Positions 13,404-45,194 of a stretch of 64,000 bases of DNA are shown piece after piece. The stretch comes from Thermodesulfobacteriota bacterium. GTDB lineage: Bacteria > Desulfobacterota_D > UBA1144 > Nemesobacterales > Mycalebacteriaceae. The DNA is taken from assembly GCA_965226585.1 (NCBI GenBank), contig OZ245366.1, positions 1,216,001 to 1,280,000 of the forward strand. Reading direction: 5' to 3'. A program made the translations under genes and the position numbers. Under the pieces are notes generated by a model. The model did no database searches and was not told the origin of the DNA. It saw only the letters and a list, made by a program, of their open reading frames with translations. Every line of letters starts with the position of its first letter. The stretch's first letter is position 1.

Positions 13404-14236
13404 GGGAGGGGGCAGAATGACACTTCTCTATTCCGTCATTCCGTGCTTGACACGGAATCCAGTATTCAACCGGTTAAGTAATACTGGATTCCTGCTTTCG
13501 CAGGAATGACGGAAGGGCAGAATGACACTTCTCTATTCCGTCATTCCGTGCTTGACACGGAATCCAGTATTCAACTGGTTAAGTAATACTGGATTCCTGC
13601 TTTCGCAGGAATGACGGAAGGGCAGGAATGACACTTCTCTATTCCGTCATTCCGTGCTTGACACGGAATCCAGTATTCAACTGGTTAAGAAATACTGGAT
13701 TCCTGCTTTCGCAGGAATGACGGGAGGGGGCAGAATGACTCTTCTCTATTCCGTCATTCCGTGCTTGACACGGAATCCAGTATTCAACTGGTTAAGTAAT
13801 ACTGGATTCCTGCTTTCGCAGGAATGACGGAAGGGGGCAACGGAATGACGGAGAGAGGCAACAGAATGACACTTCTCTATTCCGTCATTCCGTGCTTGAC
13901 ACGGAATCCAGTATTCAACTGGTTAATTAATACTGGATTCCTGCTTTCGCAGGAATGACGGGAGGGGGCAGAATGACACTTCTCTATTCCGTCATTCCGT
14001 GCTTGACACGGAATCCAGTATTCAACCGGTTAAGTAATACTGGATTCCTGCTTTCGCAGGAATGACGGGAGGGGGCAACGGAATGACGGAGAGAGGCAAC
14101 AGAATGACACTTCTCTATTCCGTCATTCCGTGCTTGACACGGAATCCAGTATTCAACTGGTTAAGTAATACTGGATTCCTGCTTTCGCAGGAATGACGGG
14201 AGGGGGCAGAATGACGGAAGGGCAGAATGACGGGGA
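13404..14236. repeat. Tandem array of seven 78-bp CGTC palindromic elements (unit about 105-131 bp)
   Basis: Elements start at about 13434, 13539, 13645, 13752, 13883, 13990 and 14121, joined by a near-constant linker ggcagaatgacacttctctattc. Confidence 0.93.
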
Positions 14237-22600: not shown

Positions 22601-25239
22601 TCGCCTTCCGACCATACCTCTGTGCCAATGCCGTTGACGGTTACATCAGAGCCGCCGCTTGTTCGAATTGTTCTGCCGGAAGTGTTAGACCAAACTTTTG
22701 AGCCGCCGTACACATCCACCGAGCCTGAACTGCCGTCTGAAAAAATTGTCGTAGAGAGGCTGCCCACAGACCAAACCTCTGTGCCACTGCCGTTGACGGT
22801 TACGGTTCTGGCGTTAATGGTTCCCGAATCCGCGCCGTTAGACCAAACTTTTGACGCGCCATACACACCAACCGAGCCTGTAACTGCAATGATTGTGTTA
22901 GAAGTGCCGCCTTGCGTCCATACGTTTGACGCGCCGTTGATTGCTACGGTTGTACCACTAATGGCTTGTGATGATGTGCTGTTAGCCCATACCTCGGAAC
23001 CGTTGACGTTCACCTGACTGCCGAGAATACCGTTACTGCTGACCCCGTTCGCTCCAACCTTTGAGCCGTTCACAACATTCACTGTTGCCGTGCCCGTTGT
23101 TACAATGGCGTTACTGTTATCCCCTTCCGTCCACACCTGCGAACTGTTTATGTTCAAATGCGCGGTGGCGGCGGTTGTAACAATGGCGTTACTTGTCGCC
23201 CCGTTTGACCAAACCTTTGAGCCGTTGACCGTTGCGGAGTCTTTTGTAACGAACGCTATGGAATCGGTTCCGTTTGTCCATACTTCCGTTGAGTGATTTA
23301 TGCTGACATGTGTAAATCCTTCCGTTGACGCAACCGCCGCGTTTATGCCGATAGAGTTACCCCCGTCCGTCCACACCTTCGCGCCGTTCAGGTCTGCTAT
23401 CGCGTAAGTCAACTGGCTTGAGCCGTCAACATCTTTGGTTTCCAGTTTTATCGCCGTTGAGTTAGCACCCCTTGCCCCGATTTCGCCGCCGTTTTTCACA
23501 CCCAGCCCGGCAATGCCGCCGTCCGTTGCGGAAACAAGAGCCGATATGGAATTTTCGCCCGTAGTCTCAACCTTCGCGCCGCCAACCACATTCGCAACAC
23601 TTACCCCGTTGCTGAGCGCGCTGGTCGCGCTTTCGCCGAGAGAAGTGAGGTAGTCAGACAAAGATGTTCCGTTGGCAAGGGCGGTTGAAGAATGCCCGGG
23701 GTTGACGACAATCGTTCCGCTGTCATCAAAAGTGAAAAGAGGGTTTGCCTCCGCAAAAGTTTCAAGTTCTCCAATATCGCCCGCCGAAACCGCCGCCCCC
23801 GTTTCGTATCCGTCCACCACGCCAACCATTATTCCGGTTGAGTTGTGTCCCGTTGCCGTAACCCGTGAGGCATTTATATCCGCTCCGGCTGTTCCGCCCG
23901 TGTCTGAAAGCACAACAACGCCGTTTGAGTTGTCTCCGCCGGTTGTGATTCGTGTTCTGGCGTTTGATATGTTCGCGTACGCGCTTCCGCTTGCCGTGTC
24001 CGTCAAAATCTCAACCGCAGTTGATTCCGCGCCAATTGTCTGCACACTCGCGCCGTTGAGGTTCAGGATTACGGTTCCGTCCGGAACTCCGGTGTCGCCC
24101 GTTCCTCTTTTTCCGCTCACGCGGGTTGAAATCGCCACAGAATTTGAACCGTTTGTCCATACGTTTGTGTTGTTCAGATTGAGGGTTGTGCTTCCGCCGA
24201 ATTCGCTTTCCGCGTCAATCGCCGAAGAGTTTGCCTCAGCCGCCCAGACGTTTGAACTTACAGCGTTCACGACAGTATTTGATTGTGAAAGCGCGGTTGT
24301 GTTTATCGCCACCGATTTGCCAAGAGTATCGTTGCCGCCTTTGCGGGTGGACACATTTGAAACAAAGAGGTTAATGGCGGTGTTGACCGCTGAAGATGAG
24401 TTTGTTTCAATGGCGGAAGCCGAGCCGCCGTCTGCCCAGATGTTCGCGCTTACCGAGTTCACGGTAACGTTCAGTCCCGCTTCATAAGACGAAATGGTTG
24501 TCGCCTCTATTCCGTTTGCCCATATATCAGAGCCGCCTATGTTGACAATCGCGTTGCCGTCTCCGGTTGCGTCATCTCCCATGTCCACAGGGTCCGGCGG
24601 GTCCGGCGGCTCCACAGGTTCTTCCGGTTCGTCCGGGTCTAAGTCCGTTACTTCGTCCCCGTTGTCTGTGCCGGTAGATTGACTGCGTCCGTCATCCGAA
24701 CTTCCTCCGGGAATACCGAGAAGTTTGCTGACAATGGAGATGGTTTTCGCGCCGCCGGCTGATGCGTTGGAATAAATTATACTGCCGTTGCTTATGTTCA
24801 CAGATTCGGCGTAGATGGCTGTGGTTCCTTCGCTTCCGTTTGCCCAGGCCGCCGCGCCGTTGACGTTGACAAACGGGGCGTTAATGGCGGTTACGTAAGA
24901 TGCGTTTGCAAATACTTTTCCGGTAGTCAGAATTGACACGTTGCCGGAAATATCTATGGTTGTTGACGCGCCCGCCTCCGTTCCGTCCCCTTCAGTCCAT
25001 ATATCAGTTACTGTGCCGCCCTCGCCGCCTGTCAGGGGAATGCTTACTCCGCCAAGGTCTAATATTGAGTCGCCATCTTCCGTGGTGGTGGTGTCCGTTA
25101 TGGAGTCGCCTCCGGTGTAGTCAATTGCCGTTTGCGCGCGGGCGGTATCAAATCCCGCAAAGGGAACGGCAATTGAAAATGCCACTAAAAGAAAGATAAC
25201 AAGGGCGGAAAACGCCCCGCTTTTAAGTTTAGATTTCAA
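16648..25239 (-). CDS. Giant autotransporter-like adhesin (2863 aa)
   Basis: TTG start, signal peptide, dozens of xVW(A/S/T)xG..AI..VxV repeats, GxGADTF motifs, barrel with YDAFIQSAW..C..GCAW; ends LNLAF. Confidence 0.88.
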   Translation of the reverse strand: MKSKLKSGAFSALVIFLLVAFSIAVPFAGFDTARAQTAIDYTGGDSITDTTTTEDGDSILDLGGVSIPLTGGEGGTVTDIWTEGDGTEAGASTTIDISGNVSILTTGKVFANASYVTAINAPFVNVNGAAAWANGSEGTTAIYAESVNISNGSIIYSNASAGGAKTISIVSKLLGIPGGSSDDGRSQSTGTDNGDEVTDLDPDEPEEPVEPPDPPDPVDMGDDATGDGNAIVNIGGSDIWANGIEATTISSYEAGLNVTVNSVSANIWADGGSASAIETNSSSAVNTAINLFVSNVSTRKGGNDTLGKSVAINTTALSQSNTVVNAVSSNVWAAEANSSAIDAESEFGGSTTLNLNNTNVWTNGSNSVAISTRVSGKRGTGDTGVPDGTVILNLNGASVQTIGAESTAVEILTDTASGSAYANISNARTRITTGGDNSNGVVVLSDTGGTAGADINASRVTATGHNSTGIMVGVVDGYETGAAVSAGDIGELETFAEANPLFTFDDSGTIVVNPGHSSTALANGTSLSDYLTSLGESATSALSNGVSVANVVGGAKVETTGENSISALVSATDGGIAGLGVKNGGEIGARGANSTAIKLETKDVDGSSQLTYAIADLNGAKVWTDGGNSIGINAAVASTEGFTHVSINHSTEVWTNGTDSIAFVTKDSATVNGSKVWSNGATSNAIVTTAATAHLNINSSQVWTEGDNSNAIVTTGTATVNVVNGSKVGANGVSSNGILGSQVNVNGSEVWANSTSSQAISGTTVAINGASNVWTQGGTSNTIIAVTGSVGVYGASKVWSNGADSGTINARTVTVNGSGTEVWSVGSLSTTIFSDGSSGSVDVYGGSKVWSNTSGRTIRTSGGSDVTVNGIGTEVWSEGDSGTTTILTLGGEILVENEAKVWSNGSSAVDTIYASGSGSSVKVNNAEVWQSGGSSRAITSISGASVDVENNAKVWSDGSTSSSAISAISGGGRVDINGSQVWSNGSFGKAIDATGSTVNVVNGSKVGANGVRSNGILGRQVNVNGSEVWANGTSSQAINATTVTINGGSNVWTQGGGAGAPSQTIGSSGSVGVGVYGGSKVWSNGASAVTINSSTVTVDGTGTEVWSAAAGSYAALSLGGGSVSVYNGSKVWANTIAATAIETRGGSDVRVNGSGTEVWTTGGSGWTVYTRDGGEIIVENGAKVWSNGSSSEALYATGSTSSVKVNNAEVWREGAIRDAIRLISGASVDVENNAKVWANGTGGSAITVTEFRAGSVTVNGSQVWAEGTDANGIVARASHVDIFNESKVWSNRSSRTALRAQTATVDNSDIWTDAVGYAALAIGRGTTGIYNGSNVWANMIRASAITGGGGSGVIVNGSNVWTLGADTNAVVVFERATIENGAKVWSNGSRSRAVAGNDIIVNGAEVWTEGGSSISIQDTIPATASLGVTVTNGAKVWANGVSSSAITGRVVTVRNSEVWSEGGTSSSIRARDFSSAITADVRIIDGAKVWANGSTSNAISATSADSVVTVDSSEVWTESIDSNSINSTGTVVRSGSKVWAEGENSIAITSGEATVTGSEVWAEGETGEAINGTKTVTESSSKVWSNGAGSRAVIAQSAFINSSSQVWTHNGTDAIRAATAIVDGGAQVWTNTLGITNAITADTTRVYNGAKVWAVENGGSAIVATVLAVVNGTGTEVWAQGSGPDMDAVAAGTAEIVSGAKVWINGAASSAVFATGTATVNGAQVWTESAGNGVDAQTARIFNKAMVWANGGANAAITSFRGSVFVDDSSVWSDGGTADGIFTSTGTVEVHNSANVWTNISQTGAIVAEAGRVIISGANVLGNAARSDGIRGRTIEVFNGSTVWARGDTSAAINAEAGSGQVVNVTGSNVWVQGGTGSSTAIRGRTAHVNITSSNVRTESEGIAVWAAGVDITDSQVWARDGWALWSYGTNVNVTGSNVWADGDGSKRAIHATTSSVSISGSNVWTTGTRGITVNARNVDITDGSNVLSNSATDRVISVYATGHVNVDASTVSTAGFSTNVIAAASVNVTGDSTVRKDSHSSGDGTTINATGRVVVDDSRVIARGPRGVAIIAQTADIYSGAIVSAQSVAGGKAVRAGTVTVSGGSLVWSSGRTSNTIEADTVSITGGGKVRSDAGASTSGIGGSGRYGISSVAPRTADITITGDGTGEIWTHGTIQSAAKVASVFAPAGGTATVGNVKVWSNSPGADAIRVETNLVLSGTEVWTVSQEAATVNASTATGGDVSVTVANGANVTARGESRGDARAYGIYAESDGGDVAITLSGSGSRVSGNGATPRGTRGIYAKSDGGNMTLEIGAGTFVSGAWFAVNMTGTGAGEIQNDGEIDGDTYMGGSGDIFNNTGTFTGVVDMKGGDDTFNNLGSRVLTLAPGGATVEMGTGADTFNNDGRLTLAGAGVIDFGAGADTFETTGTLTVSADDTITGLERALFRGQSILAVDFTPAADSEGVTVAGAATIFNLGAAVSPDDLATSLTIMGTSNASTELDYTLYTTASLSSGNRDSVLARVANIMAKVGGSARFNEDFDLLIRFSRLASPGGAGGNLLPYDAFIQSAWHTDRAFASKLRGRCGSTEGEVEEMAGGGCAWATTGSRSVSHKRTLEYKEDVFTFSGGISIPFAIAGVTIAGGYETSNFDIGVRGADVKTKAEVERFMVGVGASRPVANLFIADIGIQVGRSDVESNRVQQEAVSSPRLRALSSTAGIERVSVVGGIYITPRLELGLSHVAMDSITESGFDGIAVEGENKLFIFTAPSIEFRYPAQQFVDVWAKAGSNILLNKTHESLLKIKDDPTQVDGTLERSTHTYGGGMEFNFSSDGAGAVSASFEYDGGMSSSFKTFVHSFTGRLNLAF

Positions 25240-25777: not shown

Positions 25778-30049
<4,272 letters not shown>

Positions 30050-30066
30050 AGGACACCACTTTTTCC

Positions 30067-30336
30067 CATCATTCCGTTGCCTCACCCCGTCATTCCGTTG
30101 CCCTCCCCGTCATTCCGTTGCCTCACCCCGTCATTCCGTTGCCCTCCCCGTCATTCCGTTGCCCTCCCCGTCATTCCTGCGAAAGCAGGAATCCAGTATT
30201 ACATAACCGGTTGAATACTGGATTCCGTGTCAAGCACGGAATGACGGAAGTGGAGAAGCGTCATTCCTGCGGAAGCAGGAATCCAGTATTAATTAACCGG
30301 TTGAATACTGGATTCCGTGTCAAGCACGGAATGACG
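30067..30336. repeat. Two CGTC palindromic elements (30169-30246, 30259-30336) plus five 20-21 bp satellite units, between convergent genes
   Basis: Direct sequence match; tandem gtcattccgttgcc(c)tc(a)cccc units. Confidence 0.92.
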
Positions 30337-31725: not shown

Positions 31726-31809
31726 CTGTTTAATCCGCAACCCTCAAATCAACCCGTCTATACGCGCAAGTAGGTTATCAGTATAATTACAGCCGGGTTT
31801 TTTAAAATT

Positions 31810-34605: not shown

Positions 34606-37600
34606 ATGTCTAAAACCGCAACCACTCTTATTCTGCTTTCTCTCTTACTCGCGCTTGCCGCGCCGCCCTCTTATGCACAAACAGCAACAACCGTTGTAGT
34701 CAACGGCTCTGAAGAGCGGACGGAAGACGACGGAAGCAACACAATAGTGGCGGAAACGGTCAACATTGTGAACGAAGGAAAAGTGTGGGCAAGCGGAGAG
34801 AATAGTTCGGCGATTGCTTCGGGAAATTCGGGAAACGTTACTATTATTTCAGGAGACGGAACGGGAGAGGTTTGGACAACCATTAGCGGCGTTTCAACAG
34901 TGAATGCGACAGGAACGGCGGAAATCAAAAACCTGAAAGTGTGGGCTAACGGTCGCTCAAGCAATGCGGCTAAGGCGGCAACGGCAATAATCAACGGAGC
35001 ACAAGTTTGGACGAACGGAAACTTTTCAAGAGCCGTGTTTGCGACCACGGCGATTGTTCACGGCGCGGACGTTTGGGCTGACGACAGCATTGGAGGCATC
35101 GCTATTTACACACCGCTCGGAACAGCAACCGTAAGTAACAACTCGCAGGTTTGGGCTAACGGCGTTGGAGGCATGGCTATTTTCACACCGGGCGGAACAG
35201 TAACCGTAAGTAACAACTCACAGGTTTGGGCTGACGACATTGGAGGCATCACCATTTACGCACTGGGCGGGACAGTAAATGTAAGCAACTCGCGGGTTTG
35301 GGCTGACGACACTGGAGGCATGGCTATTTTTACAACGGTCGGGACAGCAACCGTAAGTAACAACTCACAGGTTTGGGCTAACGGCGGTGAAGGCAGAGCC
35401 ATTTACGCACCGGGTGGAACAGCAAATGTAAGCAACTCGCGGGTTTGGGCTAATGGATTTGGAAGCACCGCCATTATTGCGAATAACGTAGAGATTGAAG
35501 GTTCTGATGTTTGGACGGAAGAAGATTCCTCCGTTGTTACAATCAGCTCGGGAATTTCAAGCGTGAACAGTTCAAACCTTACTGCTTATAAGGACGGAAA
35601 GGTTTTTGCTCTGGACGCAAGCGAGGGCGACATTGAACTCAACCTTCACAACTCAACAATCGGGTTTAATGGCGCAGGCGGAGAGTTTTTTAAGATTATT
35701 GACACAGAAGACAGCGGAACAGTAAACATTCAATCCCGCAACTCATCTTTCTGGATGGGAAAAGAGAACGCGGCTGTTTTCTCAACCATAGTAGAGGCGA
35801 ACGGAACGGTAACAGACCGGATTGGTGAATTTGAACTGACAGACAGCATTGAAATTTCCGATATGAACAGAGTATGGACAAAAGGCAAAAACGGCGCCGC
35901 CTTCTCTCTTGACTACCAAGGGATGAATGATGTGAAAATCAGCGAATACTTCAACGCTCAACAGGCATGGACGGAAGGGGATAACAGCAACACAATCCGC
36001 ATAAATACGGGAACCGGAGATGTCTCATTCGCCACCACCAGCAAGATATGGGCAAACGGCGCGAACAGTTCGGTGATAAGTGCGGAAACCGGCGGCGGAG
36101 ATGCGAACATTGAAATAGGAGCAGACCATAGTGTCTGGACAAGCGGCGTGAATTCTGTGGCAGTTAAGGCAAAAGCAACCGGAGCGGGAAACGCAAGCGT
36201 CTACACCCGTGCGGGCGCAAGGATTTTCACAAATGCGGCGGATAGTGTGGCGGTTTTTATTCGGGCAGGCGGTTCGGCTGGAAGCAGTGGAGTAGAGTTA
36301 AACATTGGAAATGGCTCGGTTGTGTGCGGTGGTGTGTTTTCAGATTCAAGTGACTGCACACAGGGAGCAAATTCTTACGCCGTGCAGTTTGAGTCTGAGG
36401 AAGGAGATACAAAAATAGTAATCGGCGCGGGCGGCTCTATAGCGGGAGTGGTGTTGCTTTCAGAAAAACGCGATTTTATCTACAACAACGGTTCTTTCAC
36501 GGGTTCGGGAACAACCGGAGACGGTGATGATACGGTTGAAAACAAGGGAACTTTCACCCTCACCGGAGATTTTGACATGGGAGACGGTGAAGACATTTTC
36601 CAAAACAGGGGCACAATAAACGGCACGGGTATGGTCATATACGGTGACGATGACGAAGTTGGTGGGCTTTCTACGCCCGCCCGTCATTCGTCCGCGCCCT
36701 CCCGTCATTCCGCATCCTCCCCTTCCCGTCATTCCGTGCCTGACACGGAATCCAGTATTCAACTGGCTAACCAATACTGGATTCCTGCTTCCGCAGGAAT
36801 GACGGAGGGGGCAGGAATGACGGGGGAGGCAGGAATGACGGGGGAGGGGTCAGCAAGCGGCGACAGCCGTTTCCGCCTTTCCGCCGCCGCGCCGGAACGG
36901 GAGCCGGAACGGGTAACCATCAACTTTGGCGATGGCGATGACCATTTCATAAACGAAGGCACAGTAGTTCTTGGAGGCACGGGCGGCTTTAACGGCTTGG
37001 ACAAAATAACCTTCGGCGTGAACTCAACCCTTGTTGTCTCGGCAGACCCTGAAGAAATGAATGACAAACCGCTCATAGATATTGAAGGCGAGATAACTGC
37101 GGAAGATATTGAGGGTTTTAGAGTCAGGGTTGATGTTCCCGGAACGCACGTAACGGAATACACAATTTTTGAAGCGGATGACTTGCCGGACGGCGAGGAA
37201 AGGCAGGAAGTTGTGGAGCGTCTGAATGCGGAAATAGGCGAAAGGGGAAGTGTTCAGACAGATGGAGACGGCAATCTGTTTTTGACAGCAATATCGTTAA
37301 AAGACGCCAGTTTGGATATTTATGACTCTCTCATCCAATCCGCTTACCGCGCAGACAGGAGTTTTGCCACAAAACTTTCAAGCGGTTGCGGTTACGGATC
37401 TGCGGCGAGTGATGAGATAGACGGAGATTTCTGGACTGGTTGTGTGTGGGCAACATCGGGCGGAAGATACACACGTTATTCTTCAGCAATTAACTATGAT
37501 GAAGATGCCTATACCTTCACCGGAGGCGTTTCAGCTCCGTTCAACAGTATCCTTGTCTCGGTGGCAGGCGGTTATGAAATCTCAACCCTTGATATGGATG

Positions 37601-38271
37601 TGCTGACTGATGAAGGCAGGGCAGACGCAAGCGGAGAAGCGACAAGATTTATGGGCGGTATCTTTGCCTCCACAATAGTGGACAGATACATGGTTGACGG
37701 CAGGTTTCAGTATGTTTCTACGAGTTGGGAGTCAACCCGCTCTGATGGAGATAACCGTTACTCTGCGGATACAAACGCGACAGTATTCGGCGGCGCGCTT
37801 AGCGCGGCAATGCCGTTTTTGTCCGGCAGTTTCGCGTTATTTCCCCGCATAGAGATTGGAGCGTCTTATGTAACAGCGGGCGCGTTTGATGAGACTTCCT
37901 TAACAGACTCAGAAGAGGCAAGGGCTGATGCTTTCAAGGTAAAAGACACAAGTGAGATATTGGTATATGTAAGTCCGTCATTTGAGGCGCGTTCACCTTT
38001 GAGTGAAACGGTAAATATGAGAATTCGCGTGGGGGCGGATATACACATCTTGAACCCTGAAGCCGACCTTGAGGCAACTCTTGATGGCGGTAGCGTTCCC
38101 CGAAGCGGCGGGCAGGACCGGATAATGTTCAACTACGGCGCAGGTTTTGAATACACACCGTATGCTCCTCTGCGGGAATTGAGTGTAAGGATTGACTACG
38201 ATGGCGGAATGAGCGCGAGTTTTGATACTTTCGTGCAAGAGTTCAGAGGCGGCGTTAATTACAGTTTTTAA
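34606..38271 (+). CDS. Autotransporter-like protein (1221 aa) with in-frame palindromic-element insert
   Basis: Signal peptide, VWANG repeats, GDGDD motifs, barrel motif YDSLIQSAY..GC..GCVW; ends VNYSF. Confidence 0.88.
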   Translation: MSKTATTLILLSLLLALAAPPSYAQTATTVVVNGSEERTEDDGSNTIVAETVNIVNEGKVWASGENSSAIASGNSGNVTIISGDGTGEVWTTISGVSTVNATGTAEIKNLKVWANGRSSNAAKAATAIINGAQVWTNGNFSRAVFATTAIVHGADVWADDSIGGIAIYTPLGTATVSNNSQVWANGVGGMAIFTPGGTVTVSNNSQVWADDIGGITIYALGGTVNVSNSRVWADDTGGMAIFTTVGTATVSNNSQVWANGGEGRAIYAPGGTANVSNSRVWANGFGSTAIIANNVEIEGSDVWTEEDSSVVTISSGISSVNSSNLTAYKDGKVFALDASEGDIELNLHNSTIGFNGAGGEFFKIIDTEDSGTVNIQSRNSSFWMGKENAAVFSTIVEANGTVTDRIGEFELTDSIEISDMNRVWTKGKNGAAFSLDYQGMNDVKISEYFNAQQAWTEGDNSNTIRINTGTGDVSFATTSKIWANGANSSVISAETGGGDANIEIGADHSVWTSGVNSVAVKAKATGAGNASVYTRAGARIFTNAADSVAVFIRAGGSAGSSGVELNIGNGSVVCGGVFSDSSDCTQGANSYAVQFESEEGDTKIVIGAGGSIAGVVLLSEKRDFIYNNGSFTGSGTTGDGDDTVENKGTFTLTGDFDMGDGEDIFQNRGTINGTGMVIYGDDDEVGGLSTPARHSSAPSRHSASSPSRHSVPDTESSIQLANQYWIPASAGMTEGAGMTGEAGMTGEGSASGDSRFRLSAAAPEREPERVTINFGDGDDHFINEGTVVLGGTGGFNGLDKITFGVNSTLVVSADPEEMNDKPLIDIEGEITAEDIEGFRVRVDVPGTHVTEYTIFEADDLPDGEERQEVVERLNAEIGERGSVQTDGDGNLFLTAISLKDASLDIYDSLIQSAYRADRSFATKLSSGCGYGSAASDEIDGDFWTGCVWATSGGRYTRYSSAINYDEDAYTFTGGVSAPFNSILVSVAGGYEISTLDMDVLTDEGRADASGEATRFMGGIFASTIVDRYMVDGRFQYVSTSWESTRSDGDNRYSADTNATVFGGALSAAMPFLSGSFALFPRIEIGASYVTAGAFDETSLTDSEEARADAFKVKDTSEILVYVSPSFEARSPLSETVNMRIRVGADIHILNPEADLEATLDGGSVPRSGGQDRIMFNYGAGFEYTPYAPLRELSVRIDYDGGMSASFDTFVQEFRGGVNYSF
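36682..36845. repeat. Intragenic CGTC palindromic element (core 36727-36804) with 21/24/18-bp satellites
   Basis: Translates in frame as RHSVPDTESSIQLANQYWIPASAGMT. Confidence 0.93.
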
Positions 38272-38300
38272 TACCCCTTCTGATTTGCGGAGGCAATGTT

Positions 38301-41300
38301 TTGTCTAAAAAATTATCCTGTATTATTCTGTCTACTCTCTTATTTGCATTTTCCGCGCCGTCATCCTCTTACGCGCAACCAGCAGTCTTCGAAATCTGTG
38401 GCGACAAAAGCATCATACCCAACGCAGTCAATTTAAGATGTATCTCCACAACCGGAAACGCAGTTATTATCCTGTACCTTCCTGGTGCCGAATTTACTGA
38501 AGACAGTGGCAACTTTAGTCTGCTCAACGCCACCGAAGCGGGTGCGGATGCAATCTTTAACACTCACGCTATAAAGATCACAACAACCCAAACAGGCGGA
38601 GATACTATAATTATCGGCGGCGCGGGAAACGCTGCTTTCAGAGCCGATGACGAAGCATTTACCATCAAATCTGGCGGCGGGAATGTTGTTACTATGACAG
38701 CCGGAACGGGTGATGCGAATATAGAAATTTACAATCAATCAAAAGTTCAAATTGAATCAACCGGCGGCGGGAACGGAATTGTCGCTTCAAGCGAAAGCGG
38801 AGATGTGTTTGCGGACTTCTCCAATCAAGGGAGAATCTATTCAGTTCAAGATGACGCGACCGGGTTTATCGCGACAACCAACGGCGGTGAAATCAGCGCG
38901 AATTTTGACGGTTTGTATTCAAGAATACTTATGTACCCCGTAGGCAATCACGGTGGCTCATCAGACGCCAAAGGCGCGACACTCACATCCACAAGCGGCG
39001 ATATAAGTGTTTTGCTTACAAACTCCTCGGCAATCCTCGCCCCGTCTCTGGGAGATTCCCACGGCTTGGAGGCGGTAACGGGAGGGGACGGCGACATAAA
39101 CATACATTTGCAAAATGGAAACGCCTGCATAGTCGGCAGAAACGGGGTTAAAGCCACTACTGTTGACGGAGATATAAACATATACCTGTCGAACGCGCTG
39201 ATTCGCGGCATAGGCACAGGCGGACGGGCTTTGAATGCAACATCTACAAACGGAGATATCACAATCACAGGCGATGGCACGGGCAATATCAACTCTGTTA
39301 GTAACGTCGTCTATCTTGACACCAGCGGCGAGGCAAACATCAGCGGTGTCAGAATCGGGACAGAAGCCGGTACGGCTGTCGAGTCAACGGGAAACCTGAC
39401 TGTTTCAAACGCAGAGATTTGGGCGAACGGCAATTCTAGCGATGCGGTGAAAGCACAGACGGTACATGTATCGGGCGGAATGATCTGGACTAACGGCTTT
39501 TCTAGCGAGGCGGTGAATGCACAGACGGTGTATGTATCGGGCGGAATGATTTGGACTAACGATTTGTTTAGCGATGCGGTGGAAGCACAGACGGTGCATG
39601 TATCGGGTGGAATGATTTGGGCGAACGGCAGCGGTGCATTGTCCTCAGAGACGGTGAATGTGTCGGACGGAATGATCTGGACAACCGGCGATGTTGATGA
39701 TGCGGTGTCCTCAGATACGGTGAATGTGTCGGGCGGAATGATTTGGACAATCGGCGATTCTAGTGATGCCGTGGACGCAGATACGGTAGTGAATGTGTCG
39801 GGCGGAATGATTTGGGCTAACGGCAGATCTAGCGAGGCGGTGAAAGCACAGACGGTGTATGTGTCGGGTGGAATGATTTGGGCTGACGGCTCCCATGGCG
39901 CAGCGGTGAGTGCACAGACGTTAGTAAATGTGTCGGACGGAATGATTTGGGCTGACGGCTCCCGTGGCACAGCGGTGAATGCACAGACGGTAAATGTGTC
40001 GGGTGGAATAATTTGGTCTAACGGCTCGAATAGCCATGCGGTGAGTGCACAGACGGTAAATGTGCCGGGCGGAATAATTTGGTCTAACGGCTCCGGCATA
40101 TTATCCAGTGCTGTGTTTCTCAGAAACATAGAAGGTCCAGCGGAGTTGAAGGTTGGAGGAGGCGCGGTTGTGTGCGGCGGTATACTTTCGGGTTCTGTCT
40201 GCACGGCGGGTGGCTCTGACGTGCATGCCGTGCGTGCTGATGACTTTGCAACCACTGGCGGAACGATAACAACCGAAGACGGCGGCAATATAACGGGCAG
40301 AATTTTGCTTTCAAAACACAACGATGTTTTCTACAACAACGGCTCATTCACCGGACACGGAAACACCAGAGGCGGCGATGACAGGGTTGAAAACAAGGGA
40401 ACCTTCACCCTGACTGGAGACTTTGAAATGGGTGAAGGCGATGACACTTTTGAAAACAAAGACAGTGGAATGGTAGTTTATGGCAACCACTCAATAATCG
40501 CAGAAACCAAGCCTGACCCACCCTCCACGCAACAATCCTCTCCTTCCCGTCATTCCGCATCTTCACCTTCCCGTCATTCCGTGCTTGACACGGAATCCAG
40601 TATTCAACTGGCTAACCAATACTGGATTCCTGCTTCCGCAGGAATGACGGAGGGGGCAGGAATGACGGAGGGGGCAGGAATGACGGAGGGGGCGGGAATG
40701 ACGGAGGGGGCAGGAAACAGCCGTTTCCGCCTATCTTCTGCAGACCCCGCCCCTGCGGACACAACCGCAACCATTAACTTCGGAGATGGCGATGACCATT
40801 TCATAAACAATGGCACAATCGTAATTCAAAACACAGGCGGATTTGCGGGGCTGGAGAAAATAACCTTCGGCGAAAACTCAACCGTAATGGTTACCGCAGA
40901 CTCTACAGAAATGACAACAGACAAACCCCTCATAGAACTTGAAGGCGAGATAACTGCGGAAGATGTTAAAGACTTAAACATAAAATTAGCCAACCCTGAA
41001 AGACATTCAGACGAATTTTCTTTATTCAGTGAAACCGCCTTGCCAGACAGCGAAGCCGAAAGGCAAGAGGTATTGAGCATGATAAGCGGCGGGCTTGGTG
41101 AAGGCAGTAGCGCGGGGATGGATTCAAACGGCAACATATTTGTTGTGCTTGCAAATTCCGTCCACTTTAACTACTTGAGAAACTATGACGCGATGATTCA
41201 ATCCGCTTACCAATCGGATAGTGCCTTTTCAGAAAAACTGCGAGGCAGTTGCTACGGCGGAGAGGCGGAAACACAAGATTTAAGCGGCGGCTGTCTCTGG

Positions 41301-42077
41301 GCAGACGCAGGAAGCCGTCACACACGGCACGACACAAAGGTTAAATACGGAGAAGATGCCTATGTATTTGCCGGAGGTTTGTCCATCCCCGCAGGGCAGT
41401 CCGCCGTGTCAATCGGCGCGGGTTATGAAACATCAGACTTTAACGCCGGAACGGACACAAACGCGGCGGGTGAGCGTTTTATGGCAGGATTATCAGTAGC
41501 AGGTGAGATTTGGAAAAGAATTATCGCAGATGCAAGAACACAGTTTGCAAAAGCGGCATGGGAATCAACATCCGCAAGGGGAGAAGATACCTACTCCGCA
41601 AAGACAAATATAACAACGTGGTCTGCCGCAATAGGGGCGGAAATGCCATTCTTTCCCGGTGGTGTATTTATGGTGGTTCCGCGTCTTGAAGCGGGAGTAG
41701 CCCGTGTATCTGCGGATGGTTTTACAGAAACCGGAGACATGCCTCTTTCTGTTGAAGGATTATCACAAACATATTTGCGTGTAACTCCATCAGTAACGGC
41801 TTATGCTCCCGCAGGGGAAAGTGTAAATATGTGGATGACCGCCGGAGCGGATGCTCACTTAACAGACCCCAAAACAGACTTAAAAGCCGCCTTTTCCCCT
41901 GATGACCCGGTAAATACAAAAGGCGGACTTGAACGCATAAACATAAGATACAGCGCGGGTGCAGAGGTAAGTCCGTTAAAAGGTGTAAGTGTTCGTGTGG
42001 CGTATAGCGGCGGTGTTTCCACTACCTTTGATACGCTTACGCAGACATTTACGGCAAGGTTCGGAGTGGCGTTTTAG
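38301..42077 (+). CDS. Autotransporter-like protein (1258 aa) with in-frame palindromic-element insert
   Basis: TTG start after GGAGG, signal peptide, Cys pair, about 22-aa AQTVxVSGGMIW repeats, barrel ending FGVAF. Confidence 0.88.
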   Translation: MSKKLSCIILSTLLFAFSAPSSSYAQPAVFEICGDKSIIPNAVNLRCISTTGNAVIILYLPGAEFTEDSGNFSLLNATEAGADAIFNTHAIKITTTQTGGDTIIIGGAGNAAFRADDEAFTIKSGGGNVVTMTAGTGDANIEIYNQSKVQIESTGGGNGIVASSESGDVFADFSNQGRIYSVQDDATGFIATTNGGEISANFDGLYSRILMYPVGNHGGSSDAKGATLTSTSGDISVLLTNSSAILAPSLGDSHGLEAVTGGDGDINIHLQNGNACIVGRNGVKATTVDGDINIYLSNALIRGIGTGGRALNATSTNGDITITGDGTGNINSVSNVVYLDTSGEANISGVRIGTEAGTAVESTGNLTVSNAEIWANGNSSDAVKAQTVHVSGGMIWTNGFSSEAVNAQTVYVSGGMIWTNDLFSDAVEAQTVHVSGGMIWANGSGALSSETVNVSDGMIWTTGDVDDAVSSDTVNVSGGMIWTIGDSSDAVDADTVVNVSGGMIWANGRSSEAVKAQTVYVSGGMIWADGSHGAAVSAQTLVNVSDGMIWADGSRGTAVNAQTVNVSGGIIWSNGSNSHAVSAQTVNVPGGIIWSNGSGILSSAVFLRNIEGPAELKVGGGAVVCGGILSGSVCTAGGSDVHAVRADDFATTGGTITTEDGGNITGRILLSKHNDVFYNNGSFTGHGNTRGGDDRVENKGTFTLTGDFEMGEGDDTFENKDSGMVVYGNHSIIAETKPDPPSTQQSSPSRHSASSPSRHSVLDTESSIQLANQYWIPASAGMTEGAGMTEGAGMTEGAGMTEGAGNSRFRLSSADPAPADTTATINFGDGDDHFINNGTIVIQNTGGFAGLEKITFGENSTVMVTADSTEMTTDKPLIELEGEITAEDVKDLNIKLANPERHSDEFSLFSETALPDSEAERQEVLSMISGGLGEGSSAGMDSNGNIFVVLANSVHFNYLRNYDAMIQSAYQSDSAFSEKLRGSCYGGEAETQDLSGGCLWADAGSRHTRHDTKVKYGEDAYVFAGGLSIPAGQSAVSIGAGYETSDFNAGTDTNAAGERFMAGLSVAGEIWKRIIADARTQFAKAAWESTSARGEDTYSAKTNITTWSAAIGAEMPFFPGGVFMVVPRLEAGVARVSADGFTETGDMPLSVEGLSQTYLRVTPSVTAYAPAGESVNMWMTAGADAHLTDPKTDLKAAFSPDDPVNTKGGLERINIRYSAGAEVSPLKGVSVRVAYSGGVSTTFDTLTQTFTARFGVAF
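40548..40714. repeat. Intragenic CGTC palindromic element (core 40572-40649) with 18-bp GMTEGA repeats
   Basis: Direct sequence match; in frame. Confidence 0.93.
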
Positions 42078-42097
42078 AGACGCGGACGCGCCCACTC

Positions 42098-42141
42098 CGT
42101 CATTCCGTGCCTGACACGGAATCCAGTATTCAACTGGCTAA
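42098..42141. repeat. Half (truncated) CGTC element
   Basis: cgtcattccgtgcctgacacggaatccagtattcaactggctaa, then the match stops abruptly. Confidence 0.85.
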
Positions 42142-42168
42142 TTTCATATATATTAAAAAAACAAACAA

Positions 42169-45100
42169 ATGTCATTGCCACAAAAAATATTTTTTTTCTC
42201 TCGTTTTTCCTCACCGCTGTAACGCTTACGGCAATTGCACCTGTTCCCGCTTATTCGCAATTGCAATTCAATTATTGCGACAACCCTCCCCCTCCCTCTG
42301 CGACTTGCACCCCAGACAACATATACATCCGATTTTATCACGAACACATAAGAACCGTACTGCTTGAACCTCCGGACAAAACCTCCGTTGATGAAACAAC
42401 CGTCCGTGACGGAACCATCACCATACTCTTTAACAAACAAGGCAGAATTGCATCAAGAGTACCGGATGGCGCGAACGGGATTTTGGCAACAACTGAAAAC
42501 GGCGATATGACCGCAACTTTTGACGGACTGGGTTCGGGAATCTTTATGTATCCAAGTGGCAAACGCGACACCTACTCAAATGCCAGAGGCGCGACATTCA
42601 CAAGCGATAGCGGCAATATAAGTGTTTTACTAACAAACTCTGGGTCAATCCTCGCGCCGTCTCTGGGAGATTCCCACGGCTTTGTGGCTCAAACGGGAGA
42701 GGACGGAGATATAGACATAGTGATGAAAAACGGGAACTCATGCATAGTAGGCAGAAACGGTGTTAAAGCAACTACTGTTGACGGAGATATACGCATAGAA
42801 CTGTCGGGCGCGCTGATTCGCGGTATAGGCACAGGCGGATGGGCTTTGAATGCAACATCGGTAAATGGAGATATCACAATCACAGGCGATGGCACGGGCA
42901 ACATTGCCTCTCTGAATCATAATAGCAGCGGCGTTTATCTTGACACCGATGGTGAGGCAAGCATCAGCAATATTGATATATGGACGCAAGGAGATGGCGG
43001 CACAACAATAGAATCGGTGAGCGGCTTGCGTGTAGTATCGGGAAACATCTGGGCTAACGGCTCGGGCGGCAATACGGTGGAAGCGGGAACTGTGAATGTG
43101 TCGGGCGGAGATATTTTTACGACAGTCCATAACAGCAATGCGGTGGTTGCGCAGGCGGTGAATATATCGGGTGGAGGGATTTGGACACTCAGAGGCGGGT
43201 CATCAGAGAGCATTTTCAGTACCGCCGTGCTTCTCAGAAACGAAGACGGGCAAGCGGAATTAACGGTTGGAGGAAGCGCGATTGTGTGCGGCGGTGCGCT
43301 TTCGGGCATAATCTGCACGGCAAGCGACTATGGCTATGCCGTGCGTGCTGAGACCCCGGCGGCGACCTATGGCACAAAGATAACAACCGAAGGTAGCGGC
43401 AATATAACGGGCAGAATTGGGCTTTCAGACAACAGCGATGTTTTCTACAACAACGGCTCTTTCACCGGACACGGAAACACCGGAGCCGGTGATGACAGGG
43501 TTGAAAACAAGGGAACCTTCACCCTCACCGGAGATTTTGAAATGGGTGAAGGCGATGACAGCTTTGTGAACATAGACGGCGGAATGGTAGTAGGCGATGA
43601 CACTCACACAATAACGCCTACACCGACTACGGGAACACAATCCTCTCCACCCCGTCATTCCGCATCCTCTCCTTCCCGTCATTCCGTGCTTGACACGGAA
43701 TCCAGTATTCAACTGGGTTACCCAATACTGGATTCCTGCTTTCGCAGGAATGACGGAGGGGGCAGGAATGGCGAGAGTGGGGAATGTCATTCCGCGCCTG
43801 CGTCTTCCACCCCGTCAGCAAGCGGCGACAGCCGTTTCCGCCTCTCTTCTGCAGACCCCGCCCCTGCGGACACAACCGCAACCATTAACTTCGGCGATGG
43901 CGATGACCATTTCATAAACAACGGCACAATCGTAATTCAAGATACAGGCGGCTTTGCGGGCTTGGAGAAAATAACCTTCGGTGAAAACTCAACCGTTATG
44001 GTTACCGCAGATTCTACAGAAATGACAACAGACAAACCCCTCATAGAACTTGAAGGCGAGATAACCGCAGAGGATGTTAAAGACTTAAACATAAAATTAG
44101 CCAACCCCGAAAGACATTCAGACGAATTCGCCCTGTTCAGTGAAACCGCCTTGCCTGATAATGAAGCCGAAAGGCAAGAGGTATTGAGCATGATAAGCGG
44201 CGGTCTTGGTGAAGGCAGTAGCGCGGGGGTGGATTCAAACGGCAATATATTTGTTGTGCTTGCCAATTCCGTTCACTTTAACTACCTGAGAAATTATGAC
44301 GCAATGATCCAATCCGCTTACCACTCGGATAGTGCCTTCTCAGAAAAACTGCGCGGCAGTTGTTACGGCGGGGAAGCGGAGACACAACATTTAAGCGGCG
44401 GCTGTCTCTGGGCAGACGCAGGAAGCCGTCATACGAGACACGACACAAAGGTTAAATACGGAGAAGACGCTTATGTATTTGCCGGTGGTTTGTCCATCCC
44501 CGCCGGGCAGTCTGCCGTATCAATCGGCGCAGGTTATGAAACATCAGACTTTAACGCCGGAACTGATACAAACGCGGCAGGTGAAAGGTTTATGGCAGGA
44601 TTATCAGTAGCAGGTGAGATTTGGAAAAGAGTTATCGCGGATGCAAGAACACAGTTTGCAAAAGCGGCATGGGAATCAACATCCGCAAGGGGAGAAGATG
44701 CCTACTCCGCAAAGACAAATATAACAACATGGTCTGCCGCAATAGGGGCGGAGATGCCGTTTTTCCCCGGTGGTGTATTTATGGTGGTTCCGCGTCTTGA
44801 AGCGGGAGTAGCCCGTGTATCTGCGGACAGTTTCATGGAAACCGGCGGCGGAGATATGCCTCTTTCTGTAGGCGGATTATCACAAACATATTTGCGTGTA
44901 ACTCCATCGGTAACGGCTTATGCTCCCGCAGGGGAAAGTGTAAATATGTGGATGACCGCCGGAGCGGACGCTCATTTAACAGACCCCAAGACAGACTTAA
45001 AAGCCACCTTCTCTCCTGATGACCCTGTGAATACAAAAGGCGGTTTTGAACGCATAAACATAAGATACAGCGCGGGTGCTGAGGTAAGTCCGTTAAAAGG

Positions 45101-45194
45101 TGTAAGTGTTCGTGTTGCGTATAGCGGCGGGGTTTCCACTACCTTTGATACGCTTACGCAGACATTTACGGCAAGGTTCGGAGTGGCGTTTTAG
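42169..45194 (+). CDS. Autotransporter-like protein; ATG (42169) is one base out of frame with the signal peptide and body (open from TTG 42261 in the ORF track)
   Basis: The main frame encodes KNIFFLSFFLTAVTLTAIAPVPAYSQ with no canonical start codon. The C-terminal region is near-identical to 38301..42077 and ends FGVAF. Confidence 0.8.
43653..43800. repeat. Intragenic CGTC palindromic element (core 43677-43755, 79 bp)
   Basis: The loop is 1 nt longer, so the second half reads as LDSCFRRND; the gene frame is restored downstream. Confidence 0.92.

What the first reader, a model, noticed from the sequence alone, without database searches (positions are those of the whole stretch)
36682..43800. 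A mobile-type palindromic repeat is retained in frame at the same site of three autotransporter genes, with its stop codon absent
Seen: the 78-bp CGTC...GACG element sits inside 34606.., 38301.. and 42169.., each time between the GxGxD-motif segment and TINFGDGDDHFIN. In that frame 13 of the 15 full intergenic copies contain TAA in the loop (e.g. CTG GTT AAT TAA, GTT AAG TAA); the exceptions are 13645 and 16485. All three intragenic copies lack it. Two read CTG GCT AAC CAA (QLANQYWIPASAGMT). The third has a 1-nt longer loop, switches to the alternative frame (LGYPILDSCFRRND) and regains the gene frame downstream. In the first two genes the flanking satellites are 18/21/24 bp, versus mostly 20-21 bp at 30067. 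The homologous segments of the 2372- and 2863-aa paralogs have no insert. Known: Rickettsia RPEs insert in frame into proteins, and CGTC-tagged REPs and Neisseria dRS3 have similar ATTCC-N-GGAAT hairpins. Inference: the repeat has been selected to stay open as a 50-60 aa variable loop or mRNA structure in a secreted adhesin family.
Basis: partly seen in the sequence, partly recalled or inferred. Interest (0 to 1): 0.82.

Follow-up and report, generated by a model that had tools for sequence, protein, structure and literature searches.

The report
Hairpin repeat translated inside autotransporter linkers
A short hairpin-forming DNA repeat that litters this small genome also lies in frame inside the predicted flexible linker of 13 related surface-protein genes, where it is likely translated as a tolerated passenger: a tidy new example of a known phenomenon, not a new kind of system.

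Summary
The 78-nt CGTC...GACG double hairpin lies in frame at 36727, 40572 and 43677 in three classical autotransporter genes. 13 of 15 intergenic copies in the window carry a loop TAA in that frame. The third genic copy has a 1-nt longer loop and regains the frame downstream. Satellites inside the genes have 18- and 24-nt periods.

Genome-wide the picture is wider and more ordinary. About 140 copies exist. 14 of them lie in 13 of 27 paralogous autotransporter genes, always in the same orientation, frame and linker. The stop-free loop is not special: 55 of 126 other copies lack the stop too. Selection on the reading frame is clear: satellite spacing is a multiple of 3 in 25 of 26 genic cases against 32 of 113 elsewhere, 8 spacer lengths all keep the frame, and dN/dS downstream is about 0.09. 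Nothing shows selection for the peptide: two genes read the element's second half in another frame, and 13 paralogs and a near-identical relative lack a full insert. The insert is predicted to be disordered.

The elements differ by 0-2 nt where neighbouring synonymous divergence is 0.2-1.8, so they are likely young or homogenised.

In-frame REPs are published, and this scan already reported this case from neighbouring windows of the same genome.

The parts
34606..38271 (+). Autotransporter gene 1 (1221 aa), read through the element
   Evidence: ORF, translation. Its C-terminal 448 aa align with 22 paralogs. It has no Pfam hit on its own.
36674..36734 (+). 5' satellites: repeated CGTCATTC half-sites with a 24-nt period, read as SRHS repeats
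   Evidence: TRF. Half-site spacings of 21 and 24 nt.
36727..36804 (+). Element copy in gene 1 (78 nt, loop GGCTAACCAATA, no stop in the gene's frame)
   Evidence: RNA fold -36.6 kcal/mol.
36793..36847 (+). 3' satellites: 18-nt GGAATGACG units, 3.1 copies, read as (A)GMTEG repeats
   Evidence: TRF. Spacing 18 and 18 nt.
38301..42077 (+). Autotransporter gene 2 (1258 aa)
   Evidence: PF03797 on its C-terminal module, E = 2e-14. The model matches NalP, EstA and EspP translocators.
40535..40581 (+). 5' satellites, 24-nt period
40572..40649 (+). Element copy in gene 2 (78 nt)
   Evidence: It lies within model residues 87-163, which have pLDDT 23-26 and no secondary structure.
40638..40716 (+). 3' satellites, 18-nt period, 4.4 copies
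42098..42143 (+). Truncated element (consensus positions 1-46) 21 nt after the stop of gene 2, in the same orientation as the gene
42169..45194 (+). Autotransporter gene 3. The ATG at 42169 is out of frame with the long ORF because of a T8 run at 42190-42197
   Evidence: A contig of run X3 has one more T there (table 4).
43640..43686 (+). 5' satellites, 24-nt period
43677..43755 (+). Element copy in gene 3 (79 nt, loop GGGTTACCCAAT). Its 3' half is read in another frame
43756..43794 (+). 29-nt spacer that restores the frame, then the first 10 nt (TGTCATTCCG) of a second copy that is otherwise deleted
   Evidence: The same arrangement stands complete in the two-copy paralog at genome 688627/688736.
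13434..14198 (+). Intergenic tandem array of 7 copies (periods 105-131 nt), 6 of them with loop TAA
34126..34532 (-). Intergenic array of 4 copies upstream of gene 1, in opposite orientation, all with loop TAA
30065..30336 (-). 20/21-nt satellites followed by 2 copies
6151..13269 (-). 2372-aa distant paralog without insert
16648..25239 (-). 2863-aa distant paralog without insert

Best explanation
The 78-nt element in these genes is an ordinary copy of the genome's CGTC-tagged double-hairpin repeat, lying in frame in a predicted disordered linker of classical autotransporter genes, where it is likely translated as a tolerated passenger, with selection acting only on reading frame and stop codons. 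Shown: the element is two inverted hairpins (CGTCATTCC-N11-GGAATCCAG) around a short central palindrome, and about 140 copies exist, mostly in tandem arrays next to these genes. Shown: 14 copies lie in 13 of 27 paralogous autotransporter genes, always co-oriented with the gene, in one frame and at one linker, about 200 residues before the beta-barrel. Shown: all length changes there keep the frame, and the C-terminal module behind the insert is under strong purifying selection. Inferred: one or a few insertions of an array unit were accepted because the linker tolerates extra residues, and they then spread among paralogs by duplication and short-patch recombination. Inferred: the copies are kept nearly identical by the same DNA-level process that homogenises the intergenic copies, possibly involving the small GIY-YIG (Ssn-like) nuclease gene that sits inside split copies of the element. 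Inferred: the peptide itself has no required sequence.
For: Census: 140 near-full copies. 14 lie in ORFs of 791-1917 aa, each 457-508 codons from the ORF end, and the element strand equals the gene strand in 14 of 14. Family: 30 matches to the C-terminal module, in 27 genes of 700 aa or more. 13 have a full element, 1 has a half copy and 13 have none. Autotransporter status: PF03797 E = 2e-14, and Foldseek matches to EstA (E = 1.5e-17) and NalP (TM 0.86). Disordered site: model residues 87-163 have pLDDT 23-26 and no secondary structure, between beta rungs; they correspond to window 40488-40718. Frame selection: 25 of 26 genic spacings are multiples of 3, against 32 of 113 elsewhere, and 13 of 13 genes keep one frame across 8 spacer lengths. 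Translation of the downstream part: median dN/dS 0.09 over 36 pairs. 11 of 13 genes have an in-frame start followed by a hydrophobic leader. The open frame is not special: 55 of 126 non-genic copies are open in that frame, and identical copies stand between genes. The peptide is not constrained: the alternative frame is used in 2 genes. Empty sites exist in paralogs, including one whose C-terminal module is 94% identical to gene 1's. A MAG protein has near-identical flanks and no insert. One filled site exceeds an empty one by 105 nt, the size of one array unit. The genic copies form a subfamily: the C41/C46/C65 signature occurs in 12 of 12 genic against 7 of 97 non-genic 78-nt copies. A GIY-YIG ORF (PF01541, E = 8e-16) lies in the central loop of two split copies. 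In-frame CGTC REPs and RPEs are published.
Against: Passive inheritance does not explain why the elements differ by only 0-2 nt (mean identity 97.3% over 78 gene pairs) while the adjacent 230 nt average 74% upstream and 82% downstream, and synonymous divergence of the module is 0.22-1.8. Some active or very recent process is needed, and I did not identify it. All 14 genic copies share one orientation, although the reverse frame R1 is open in 105 of 126 copies, so tolerance alone does not explain the orientation. There are no RNA or peptide data. The low pLDDT could partly reflect the shallow alignment of 23 paralogs. 'Tolerated' cannot be told from 'mildly useful as a spacer' by sequence. Two of the 13 genes (gene 3 and the one at genome 1190809) lack an in-frame start in this assembly.
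Confidence: 0.68

Rival explanations
1. Exapted linker. The element-encoded 50-60 residues would have been recruited as a useful variable-length spacer or surface epitope of the adhesins, and would be kept for that reason.
For: The insert is kept open in 13 genes. The number of in-frame 18-nt units varies, giving 8 spacer lengths. The position is a predicted flexible stalk before the autochaperone-like region and barrel.
Against: Two genes read the second half in another frame and make an unrelated peptide. 2 of the 3 polymorphic sites in genic copies are non-synonymous (read). 13 of 27 paralogs and the MAG protein P0013 do without it. Conservation follows the hairpin stems, as in intergenic copies, not the codon positions.
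Confidence: 0.1
2. Recombination joint. The identical 78-nt patches, possibly nicked by the Ssn-like nuclease, would serve as crossover points for shuffling passenger and translocator modules among paralogs.
For: The family is mosaic. For example, genome 446471 and 1190809 are 100% identical upstream and 66-78% identical further downstream. Identity changes cluster within about 500 nt of the junction. dRS3/NTS repeats were proposed as recombination substrates in Neisseria (Discussion passage).
Against: In a change-point scan of 300 pairs, 18 were strong. 0 of the 8 in pairs where both genes carry the element fall in the element/linker zone. They lie 309-382 columns upstream, 248 columns downstream or after the stop codon. 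Pairs without elements show the same kind of junction-area breaks. The scan models one break per pair and is crude.
Confidence: 0.1
3. RNA-level function. The -37 kcal/mol hairpin in the mRNA would pause ribosomes or stabilise or process the transcript, and would be kept for that strand-specific role.
For: The fold is strong. Non-genic copies within 700 nt downstream of family genes are co-oriented with the gene in 45 of 48 cases, and genic copies in 14 of 14. REPs downstream of genes are thought to act as RNA elements (abstract).
Against: The element is nearly palindromic, and the reverse strand folds as well (-39.5 kcal/mol), so the fold alone gives no strand preference. 13 paralogs lack it. 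No RNA data exist.
Confidence: 0.08
4. Artefact or dead genes. The inserts would be assembly chimeras, or the genes would be pseudogenes no longer read through.
For: Short-read unitigs cannot bridge the repeat, and no listed piece spans it. Gene 3 and one other gene lack an in-frame start.
Against: The same arrangement appears in 13 loci of a single-contig genome, with the frame kept every time. Unitigs of run X1 tile window 36580-36940. An independent run (X3, another study) holds the loop variant and the right junction 36794-36858 without a difference, at flank-like depth. dN/dS downstream is 0.05-0.24 in the 36 pairs with dS below 1.5.
Confidence: 0.02

Closest known systems
CGTC-tagged REPs found inside genes (Di Nocera, De Gregorio & Rocco 2013, PMC3733652; abstract and passages read, Additional file 3 searched)
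   Same: These are short stem-loops tagged by CGTC, at high copy number, in dimers and clusters, mostly downstream of genes. Some lie entirely within ORFs and encode 20-82 residues. The authors argue such inserts are neutral in modular proteins. They also note repeat ends that supply stop codons, which is seen here too.
   Different: Here one paralogous surface-protein family carries the repeat at one homologous linker site in 13 genes, with frame-preserving satellite arrays. Their list holds no 'autotransporter', 'adhesin' or 'surface' entry. They report no dedicated enzyme for CGTC REPs.
Rickettsia palindromic elements (RPE), as summarised in PMC10969869 (passage read) and PMC3733652
   Same: Palindromic repeats are inserted in frame in ORFs that stay functional, and the same families also stand between genes.
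   Different: RPEs sit in many unrelated, mostly housekeeping genes. Here all 14 genic copies are in one gene family at one site. Sequence relationship to RPE families was not tested.
Neisseria dRS3/NTS and Ssn-related motifs with the SsnA GIY-YIG single-strand nuclease (Chenal et al. 2025, PMC11893778; abstract, sections 7, 10, 17 and passages read)
   Same: Each half of the element shares the NTS ends CGTCATTCC...GGAATCYRG. Hundreds of copies cluster around particular genes. A 96-aa single-domain GIY-YIG gene lies between two halves of the repeat.
   Different: The halves do not match the published NTS or the degenerate SRM search pattern. The paper's text has no occurrence of 'in-frame', 'intragenic' or 'within genes'. 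The nuclease's clade (cd10448) and activity could not be tested.
Classical (type Va) autotransporters: NalP, EspP, EstA, AIDA-I
   Same: Gene 2 has a C-terminal PF03797 barrel, a pore helix and beta-rung passenger.
   Different: The family is narrow: only 3 outside hits, all MAG proteins, and no match in 5 congeners. Its passenger carries a repeat-derived linker.

Membership tests
CGTC-tagged REP (Di Nocera 2013) | Short stem-loop tagged at one end by CGTC | tested here: met
   Each half reads CGTC-ATTCC-N11-GGAAT. There are 261 matches to CGTCATTCC-N9-13-GGAATCYRG in the genome; sequences.
CGTC-tagged REP (Di Nocera 2013) | High copy number, mostly extragenic, often as dimers or clusters | tested here: met
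   140 near-full dimers, 126 of them outside the family ORFs, mostly in tandem arrays.
CGTC-tagged REP (Di Nocera 2013) | Assignment to one of the four published CGTC families by sequence | not tested
   I did not read the family consensus sequences.
NTS / Ssn-related motif with Ssn nuclease (Chenal 2025) | Match to the NTS consensus or to the degenerate SRM search pattern | tested here: not met
   0 matches in either strand of the consensus. The genome has 7 SRM matches, against 8-14 in three shuffles, and 0 NTS matches.
NTS / Ssn-related motif with Ssn nuclease (Chenal 2025) | Small single-domain GIY-YIG gene flanked on both sides by the repeat | tested here: met
   Two identical 96-aa ORFs lie in the central loop of split copies. 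PF01541 E = 7.8e-16.
NTS / Ssn-related motif with Ssn nuclease (Chenal 2025) | Nuclease belongs to the cd10448 clade | not testable with these tools
   No CDD library is available. NCBIfam gave no hit. The best PDB match is 1zg2 at E = 0.26.
NTS / Ssn-related motif with Ssn nuclease (Chenal 2025) | Site-specific cleavage of single-stranded DNA near the hairpin | not testable with these tools
   This needs an enzyme assay.
RPE-like translated palindromic insertion | The same repeat family occurs between genes and in frame inside ORFs that remain conserved | tested here: met
RPE-like translated palindromic insertion | Insertions spread over many unrelated genes | tested here: not met
   All 14 copies in ORFs longer than 300 aa are in one autotransporter family.
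Type Va autotransporter | C-terminal autotransporter beta-domain | tested here: met
   Gene 2's module: PF03797 at 54.4 bits against a cut-off of 26. Gene 1's module has no hit on its own but aligns throughout.
Type Va autotransporter | Pore helix plus beta-barrel fold like solved translocators | tested here: met
   The model has a helix at 311-336 and strands at 355-614. Foldseek: NalP 1uyn TM 0.86, EstA, EspP. The model's mean pLDDT is 67.
Type Va autotransporter | N-terminal signal peptide | tested here: inconclusive
   11 of 13 element-bearing genes show a start plus a hydrophobic leader ending YAQ or YSQ, judged by eye. No predictor was run. Gene 3's ATG is out of frame.

The most novel reading that the evidence does not exclude
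The elements are actively copy-corrected. A hairpin-specific process, driven by the Ssn-like GIY-YIG nuclease encoded inside split copies, keeps all copies, including those inside coding sequence, within 0-2 nt of each other while neighbouring codons diverge to dS 0.2-1.8. It also installs copies co-oriented with transcription. The autotransporter linker would then be a site of ongoing, frame-filtered insertion and length change in surface proteins.
Probability: 0.15. Interest if true: 0.65.

Novelty: new member of a known kind. Interest (0 to 1): 0.35.

Why it matters
The case shows how a selfish or structural DNA repeat can persist inside genes that are under strong purifying selection. Only stop-free variants and length changes in multiples of three survive, and only where the protein is flexible. 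It extends translated CGTC-type hairpin repeats to a small-genome, uncultured bacterium; NCBI labels the only outside relatives found as Thermodesulfobacteriota MAGs, and a run labelled sponge metagenome holds the stretch. It also extends them to a surface-protein family. The contrast between nearly identical elements and well-diverged neighbouring codons gives a measurable handle on how fast such repeats are renewed. That bears on the open question of what moves or homogenises CGTC/NTS-type repeats.

Tried and rejected
1. A fuzzy-regex census of the genome timed out and was replaced by blastn.
2. A ORF listing on locus L001 with a 2000-aa threshold returned nothing and served no purpose.
3. 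A Pfam scan of the five whole proteins gave 0 families. Only the separated C-terminal module of gene 2 hit PF03797.
4. PDB sequence search with gene 1's module: 0 hits.
5. Searches for related DNA in metagenome contigs and genome contigs found no relative. The DNA behind the MAG proteins P0013-P0015 could not be read, so the direction of change (gain or loss) at their empty and half sites is open.
6. No match to the C-terminal module in the 5 congeners (E <= 1e-10, 95-98% complete), so there are no orthologous empty sites in other species.
7. Expression: no RNA holder was listed.
8. Reads: only Logan unitigs were available, and none of the listed pieces bridges the whole element. Run X3 has no cover at 36658-36696 at 97% likeness.
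9. Element as recombination joint: not supported by the change-point scan.
10. The loop TAA contrast as a test of selection: rejected as circular, because genic copies were recognised by being open, and weak, because 44% of the other copies are open.
11. The ungapped identity profile upstream of the element is blurred by indels. I used it only to show that identity falls off right outside the element.
12. The second part of the script failed on a formatting error after printing its main numbers.
14. I ran no gene finder. 'Non-genic' means outside the family's long ORFs.

Full report
WHAT IS THERE

The window is bases 1216001-1280000 of a single-contig genome of 1.484 Mb with 51.6% G+C. The feature is a 78-nt element. 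It consists of two inverted hairpins (CGTCATTCC-N11-GGAATCCAG and its mirror image) around a short central palindrome with a 13-nt loop. As RNA the genic copy folds at -36.6 kcal/mol (z = -6.8), and the opposite strand folds equally well at -39.5 kcal/mol.

Copies stand at window 36727-36804, 40572-40649 and 43677-43755 on the + strand. They lie inside three long ORFs, whose translations run through them.

- The window has 15 further near-full copies. 13 carry TAA in the frame used by the genes, and the two exceptions are 13645 and 16485, as stated.
- Copies 1 and 2 read CTG GCT AAC CAA.
- Copy 3 has a loop one base longer and reads its second half in another frame (LGYPILDSCFRRND...). The frame returns because the following spacer is 29 nt, so 79+29 = 108. 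After it come the first 10 nt of a second copy that is otherwise deleted.
- The complete form of this arrangement, two copies in one gene, stands at genome 688627/688736.
- TRF finds 24-nt satellites on the 5' side and 18-nt satellites on the 3' side in the genes. Between genes the periods are 16, 20, 21, 22 and 28 nt.
- The 2372-aa and 2863-aa paralogs have no element and no such linker.

THE WIDER PICTURE

A blastn census gives 170 hit clusters, 140 of them near-full copies, mostly in tandem arrays with periods of about 90-131 nt.

Fourteen copies lie in stop-free frames of 791-1917 codons. There are thirteen such genes, one of them with two copies. In all 14 cases the element has the gene's orientation and the same frame, and lies 457-508 codons from the ORF end.

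A tblastn search with the last 440 residues of gene 1 finds 30 matches, in 27 genes of 700 aa or more. 13 carry a full element. One carries only the first hairpin (SRHSVPDTESSI, then TPSASGDS). 13 have none, including a gene whose C-terminal module is 94% identical to gene 1's.

The three genes of the finding are therefore not three independent events. They are members of a family trait.

WHAT THE GENES ARE

- The C-terminal module of gene 2 matches the Pfam autotransporter beta-domain (PF03797, E = 2e-14, 54 bits against a cut-off of 26).
- An AlphaFold2 model of its last 615 residues was built on 23 paralogs and has mean pLDDT 67. It shows beta rungs, a long helix and a barrel.
- Foldseek places the model with EstA, NalP (TM 0.86), EspP, AIDA-I, Hbp and BrkA.
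- Residues 87-163 have pLDDT 23-26 and no secondary structure. They correspond to window 40488-40718, that is the element with both satellite blocks.
- The insert thus sits in a predicted disordered, Ser/Pro/Gly-rich linker about 200 residues before the barrel. The shallow alignment may exaggerate the low confidence.

The family is narrow.

- Outside this genome, the search found only three proteins, all named by NCBI as MAG proteins of Thermodesulfobacteriota bacteria.
- No match was found in the five congeners.
- One of the MAG proteins (P0013) has flanks nearly identical to gene 2 and no insert. The other two carry the half copy.

IS THE FRAME SELECTED? YES

- Spacings of 32 nt or less between successive half-sites are multiples of 3 in 25 of 26 cases inside family ORFs. 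The exception lies at the 5' edge of a stop-to-stop frame. Elsewhere the figure is 32 of 113 (Fisher p = 8e-11). Copies related by descent inflate this test.
- The distance from the element to a conserved anchor takes 8 different values in 13 genes, and element plus spacer always falls in the same residue class modulo 3. Seven independent changes would do so by chance with p of about 5e-4.
- The module behind the insert evolves at dN/dS 0.05-0.24, median 0.09, over the 36 pairs with dS of 0.02-1.5.
- 11 of 13 genes have an in-frame start followed by a hydrophobic leader.

Translation through the element is therefore strongly implied, although no RNA or peptide data exist.

IS THE STOP-FREE LOOP AN ADAPTATION, OR THE PEPTIDE USEFUL? 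THE EVIDENCE SAYS NO

- Genome-wide, 55 of 126 non-genic copies are open in that frame.
- Copies identical to the genic ones stand between genes, at genome 780762 and 1334157.
- Comparing genic with other copies is circular, because the genic ones were found by being open.
- Two genes translate the second half in another frame into an unrelated peptide.
- Of the three sites that vary among genic copies, two change the residue (read).
- Variation sits in the hairpin loops, as in intergenic copies.
- One filled site exceeds an empty one by 105 nt, the length of one array unit.

WHAT REMAINS UNEXPLAINED

- Among the 13 genes the elements are on average 97.3% identical (minimum 92.4%). The 230 nt upstream average 74.0% and the 230 nt downstream 82.1%. 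The element is the most similar part in 71 of 78 pairs.
- The lowest synonymous divergence between any two modules is 0.217, and between clades it exceeds 1. Copies in different clades can nevertheless be identical.
- The 12 genic 78-nt copies share a signature (C at positions 41, 46 and 65) that only 7 of 97 other 78-nt copies have.
- So the genic copies are young or are homogenised, mainly among themselves.
- All 14 are co-oriented with their gene, although the reverse frame is open in 105 of 126 copies. Copies within 700 nt downstream of family genes are also co-oriented, 45 of 48.

I tested whether the element is the crossover point of this mosaic family. It is not, as far as a one-break model can tell. 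Of 300 pairs, 18 show a strong change of identity. None of the 8 such changes in pairs where both genes carry the element falls in the element/linker zone.

RELATION TO KNOWN THINGS

Earlier notes of this scan pointed me to two papers, which I then read in part.

- Di Nocera et al. 2013 (PMC3733652; abstract and passages) define CGTC-tagged REPs and equate Neisseria dRS3 and Rickettsia RPE-4/-6 with them. They list REPs inside ORFs encoding up to 82 residues and argue these are neutral in modular proteins. Their Additional file 3 has no autotransporter, adhesin or surface entry.
- Chenal et al. 2025 (PMC11893778; abstract, sections 7, 10, 17 and passages) describe NTS/SRM hairpins and the SsnA GIY-YIG single-strand nuclease. 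The text has no occurrence of 'in-frame' or 'intragenic'.
- Here each half shares the NTS ends. Two identical 96-aa GIY-YIG ORFs (PF01541, E = 8e-16) lie in the loop of split copies.
- The halves do not match the published NTS or SRM patterns, and the nuclease's clade could not be tested.
- A MITE review (PMC10969869; passage read) describes in-frame RPEs in Rickettsia.
- A full-text search for palindromic + in-frame + autotransporter + repeat returned 15 papers. None of the 12 listed concerns such a case, judging by title or abstract. A search for Ssn + NTS + GIY-YIG + hairpin from 2025 returned only the Chenal paper.

READS

- Four runs hold half or more of the sampled words of window 36300-37300. 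Three are from one sample, and one is labelled sponge metagenome, from another study.
- Only short unitigs were available.
- Those of X1 tile 36580-36940.
- X3 has the left flank, the genic loop variant and the right junction 36794-36858 without a difference, at a depth like the flank's. It has no cover at 36658-36696.
- No listed piece bridges the repeat.
- This, together with 13 frame-preserving loci in a one-contig assembly, argues against an assembly artefact.

VERDICT

This is a real and clean case of a published phenomenon, and this scan has already reported it from neighbouring windows of the same genome (notes e1-1206535, e1-9083610). Selection on the reading frame is shown. Selection for the loop as a protein part is not shown. 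The near-identity of the elements against diverged neighbouring codons is the one feature that deserves further work.

Noticed in passing
window 42169-42200: Gene 3's ATG (42169) is out of frame with its long ORF because of a run of 8 T (42190-42197), and read from that ATG the frame stops after 17 codons. One contig of the independent run X3 has one more T, which would join the ATG and signal peptide to the ORF. Runs X1 and X2 show T8. This may be homopolymer phase variation, a strain difference or a homopolymer error.
   Followed up: partly
outside the window: G000:C1 about 690232, 780651, 832941, 1189477, 1210499: In five family genes the stop codon TAA is the loop TAA of a truncated element (...GCGTTT TAA TACTGGATTCC...), in the same element frame as the intragenic copies.
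   Followed up: partly
genome-wide; in the window e.g. 42098-42143 after gene 2: Non-genic copies within 700 nt downstream of family genes are co-oriented with the gene in 45 of 48 cases. Upstream the counts are 19 same and 15 opposite.
   Followed up: partly
outside the window: G000:C1 about 1209374-1209664 and 1333305-1333595: Two identical 96-aa GIY-YIG ORFs each sit in the central loop of a split element and read in the element's reverse orientation. The open reverse frame of the element's left half is in frame with the ORF.
   Followed up: partly
window 36793-36847 and 40638-40716: Each 18-nt satellite unit carries GGAGG followed 8 nt later by an in-frame ATG. This looks like a Shine-Dalgarno sequence plus start, repeated just before the C-terminal module. 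It is probably without consequence, because a product started there would lack a signal peptide.
   Followed up: no
window 40714-40733 (GGAAACAGCCGTTTCC) and the homologous sites: The conserved RFRLS motif just after the insert is itself encoded by a small 6-bp hairpin in several paralogs.
   Followed up: no
outside the window: G000:C1:1189478-1192993 (-): This element-bearing paralog begins, in its stop-to-stop frame, inside the signal-peptide region, and its first in-frame start is at codon 78. The gene may be frameshifted at its 5' end.
   Followed up: no
window 30046-30726 (+): A 226-codon ORF runs through the satellites and two reverse-oriented copies, whose reverse frame is open. It overlaps the minus-strand ORF 30337-31740 and is probably spurious.
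   Followed up: no
window 38301-42077: Pfam scanning of the whole 1258-aa protein returned no family at E <= 0.01, while its last 435 residues alone match PF03797 at 2e-14. This is a caution for scans of long repetitive proteins.
   Followed up: yes
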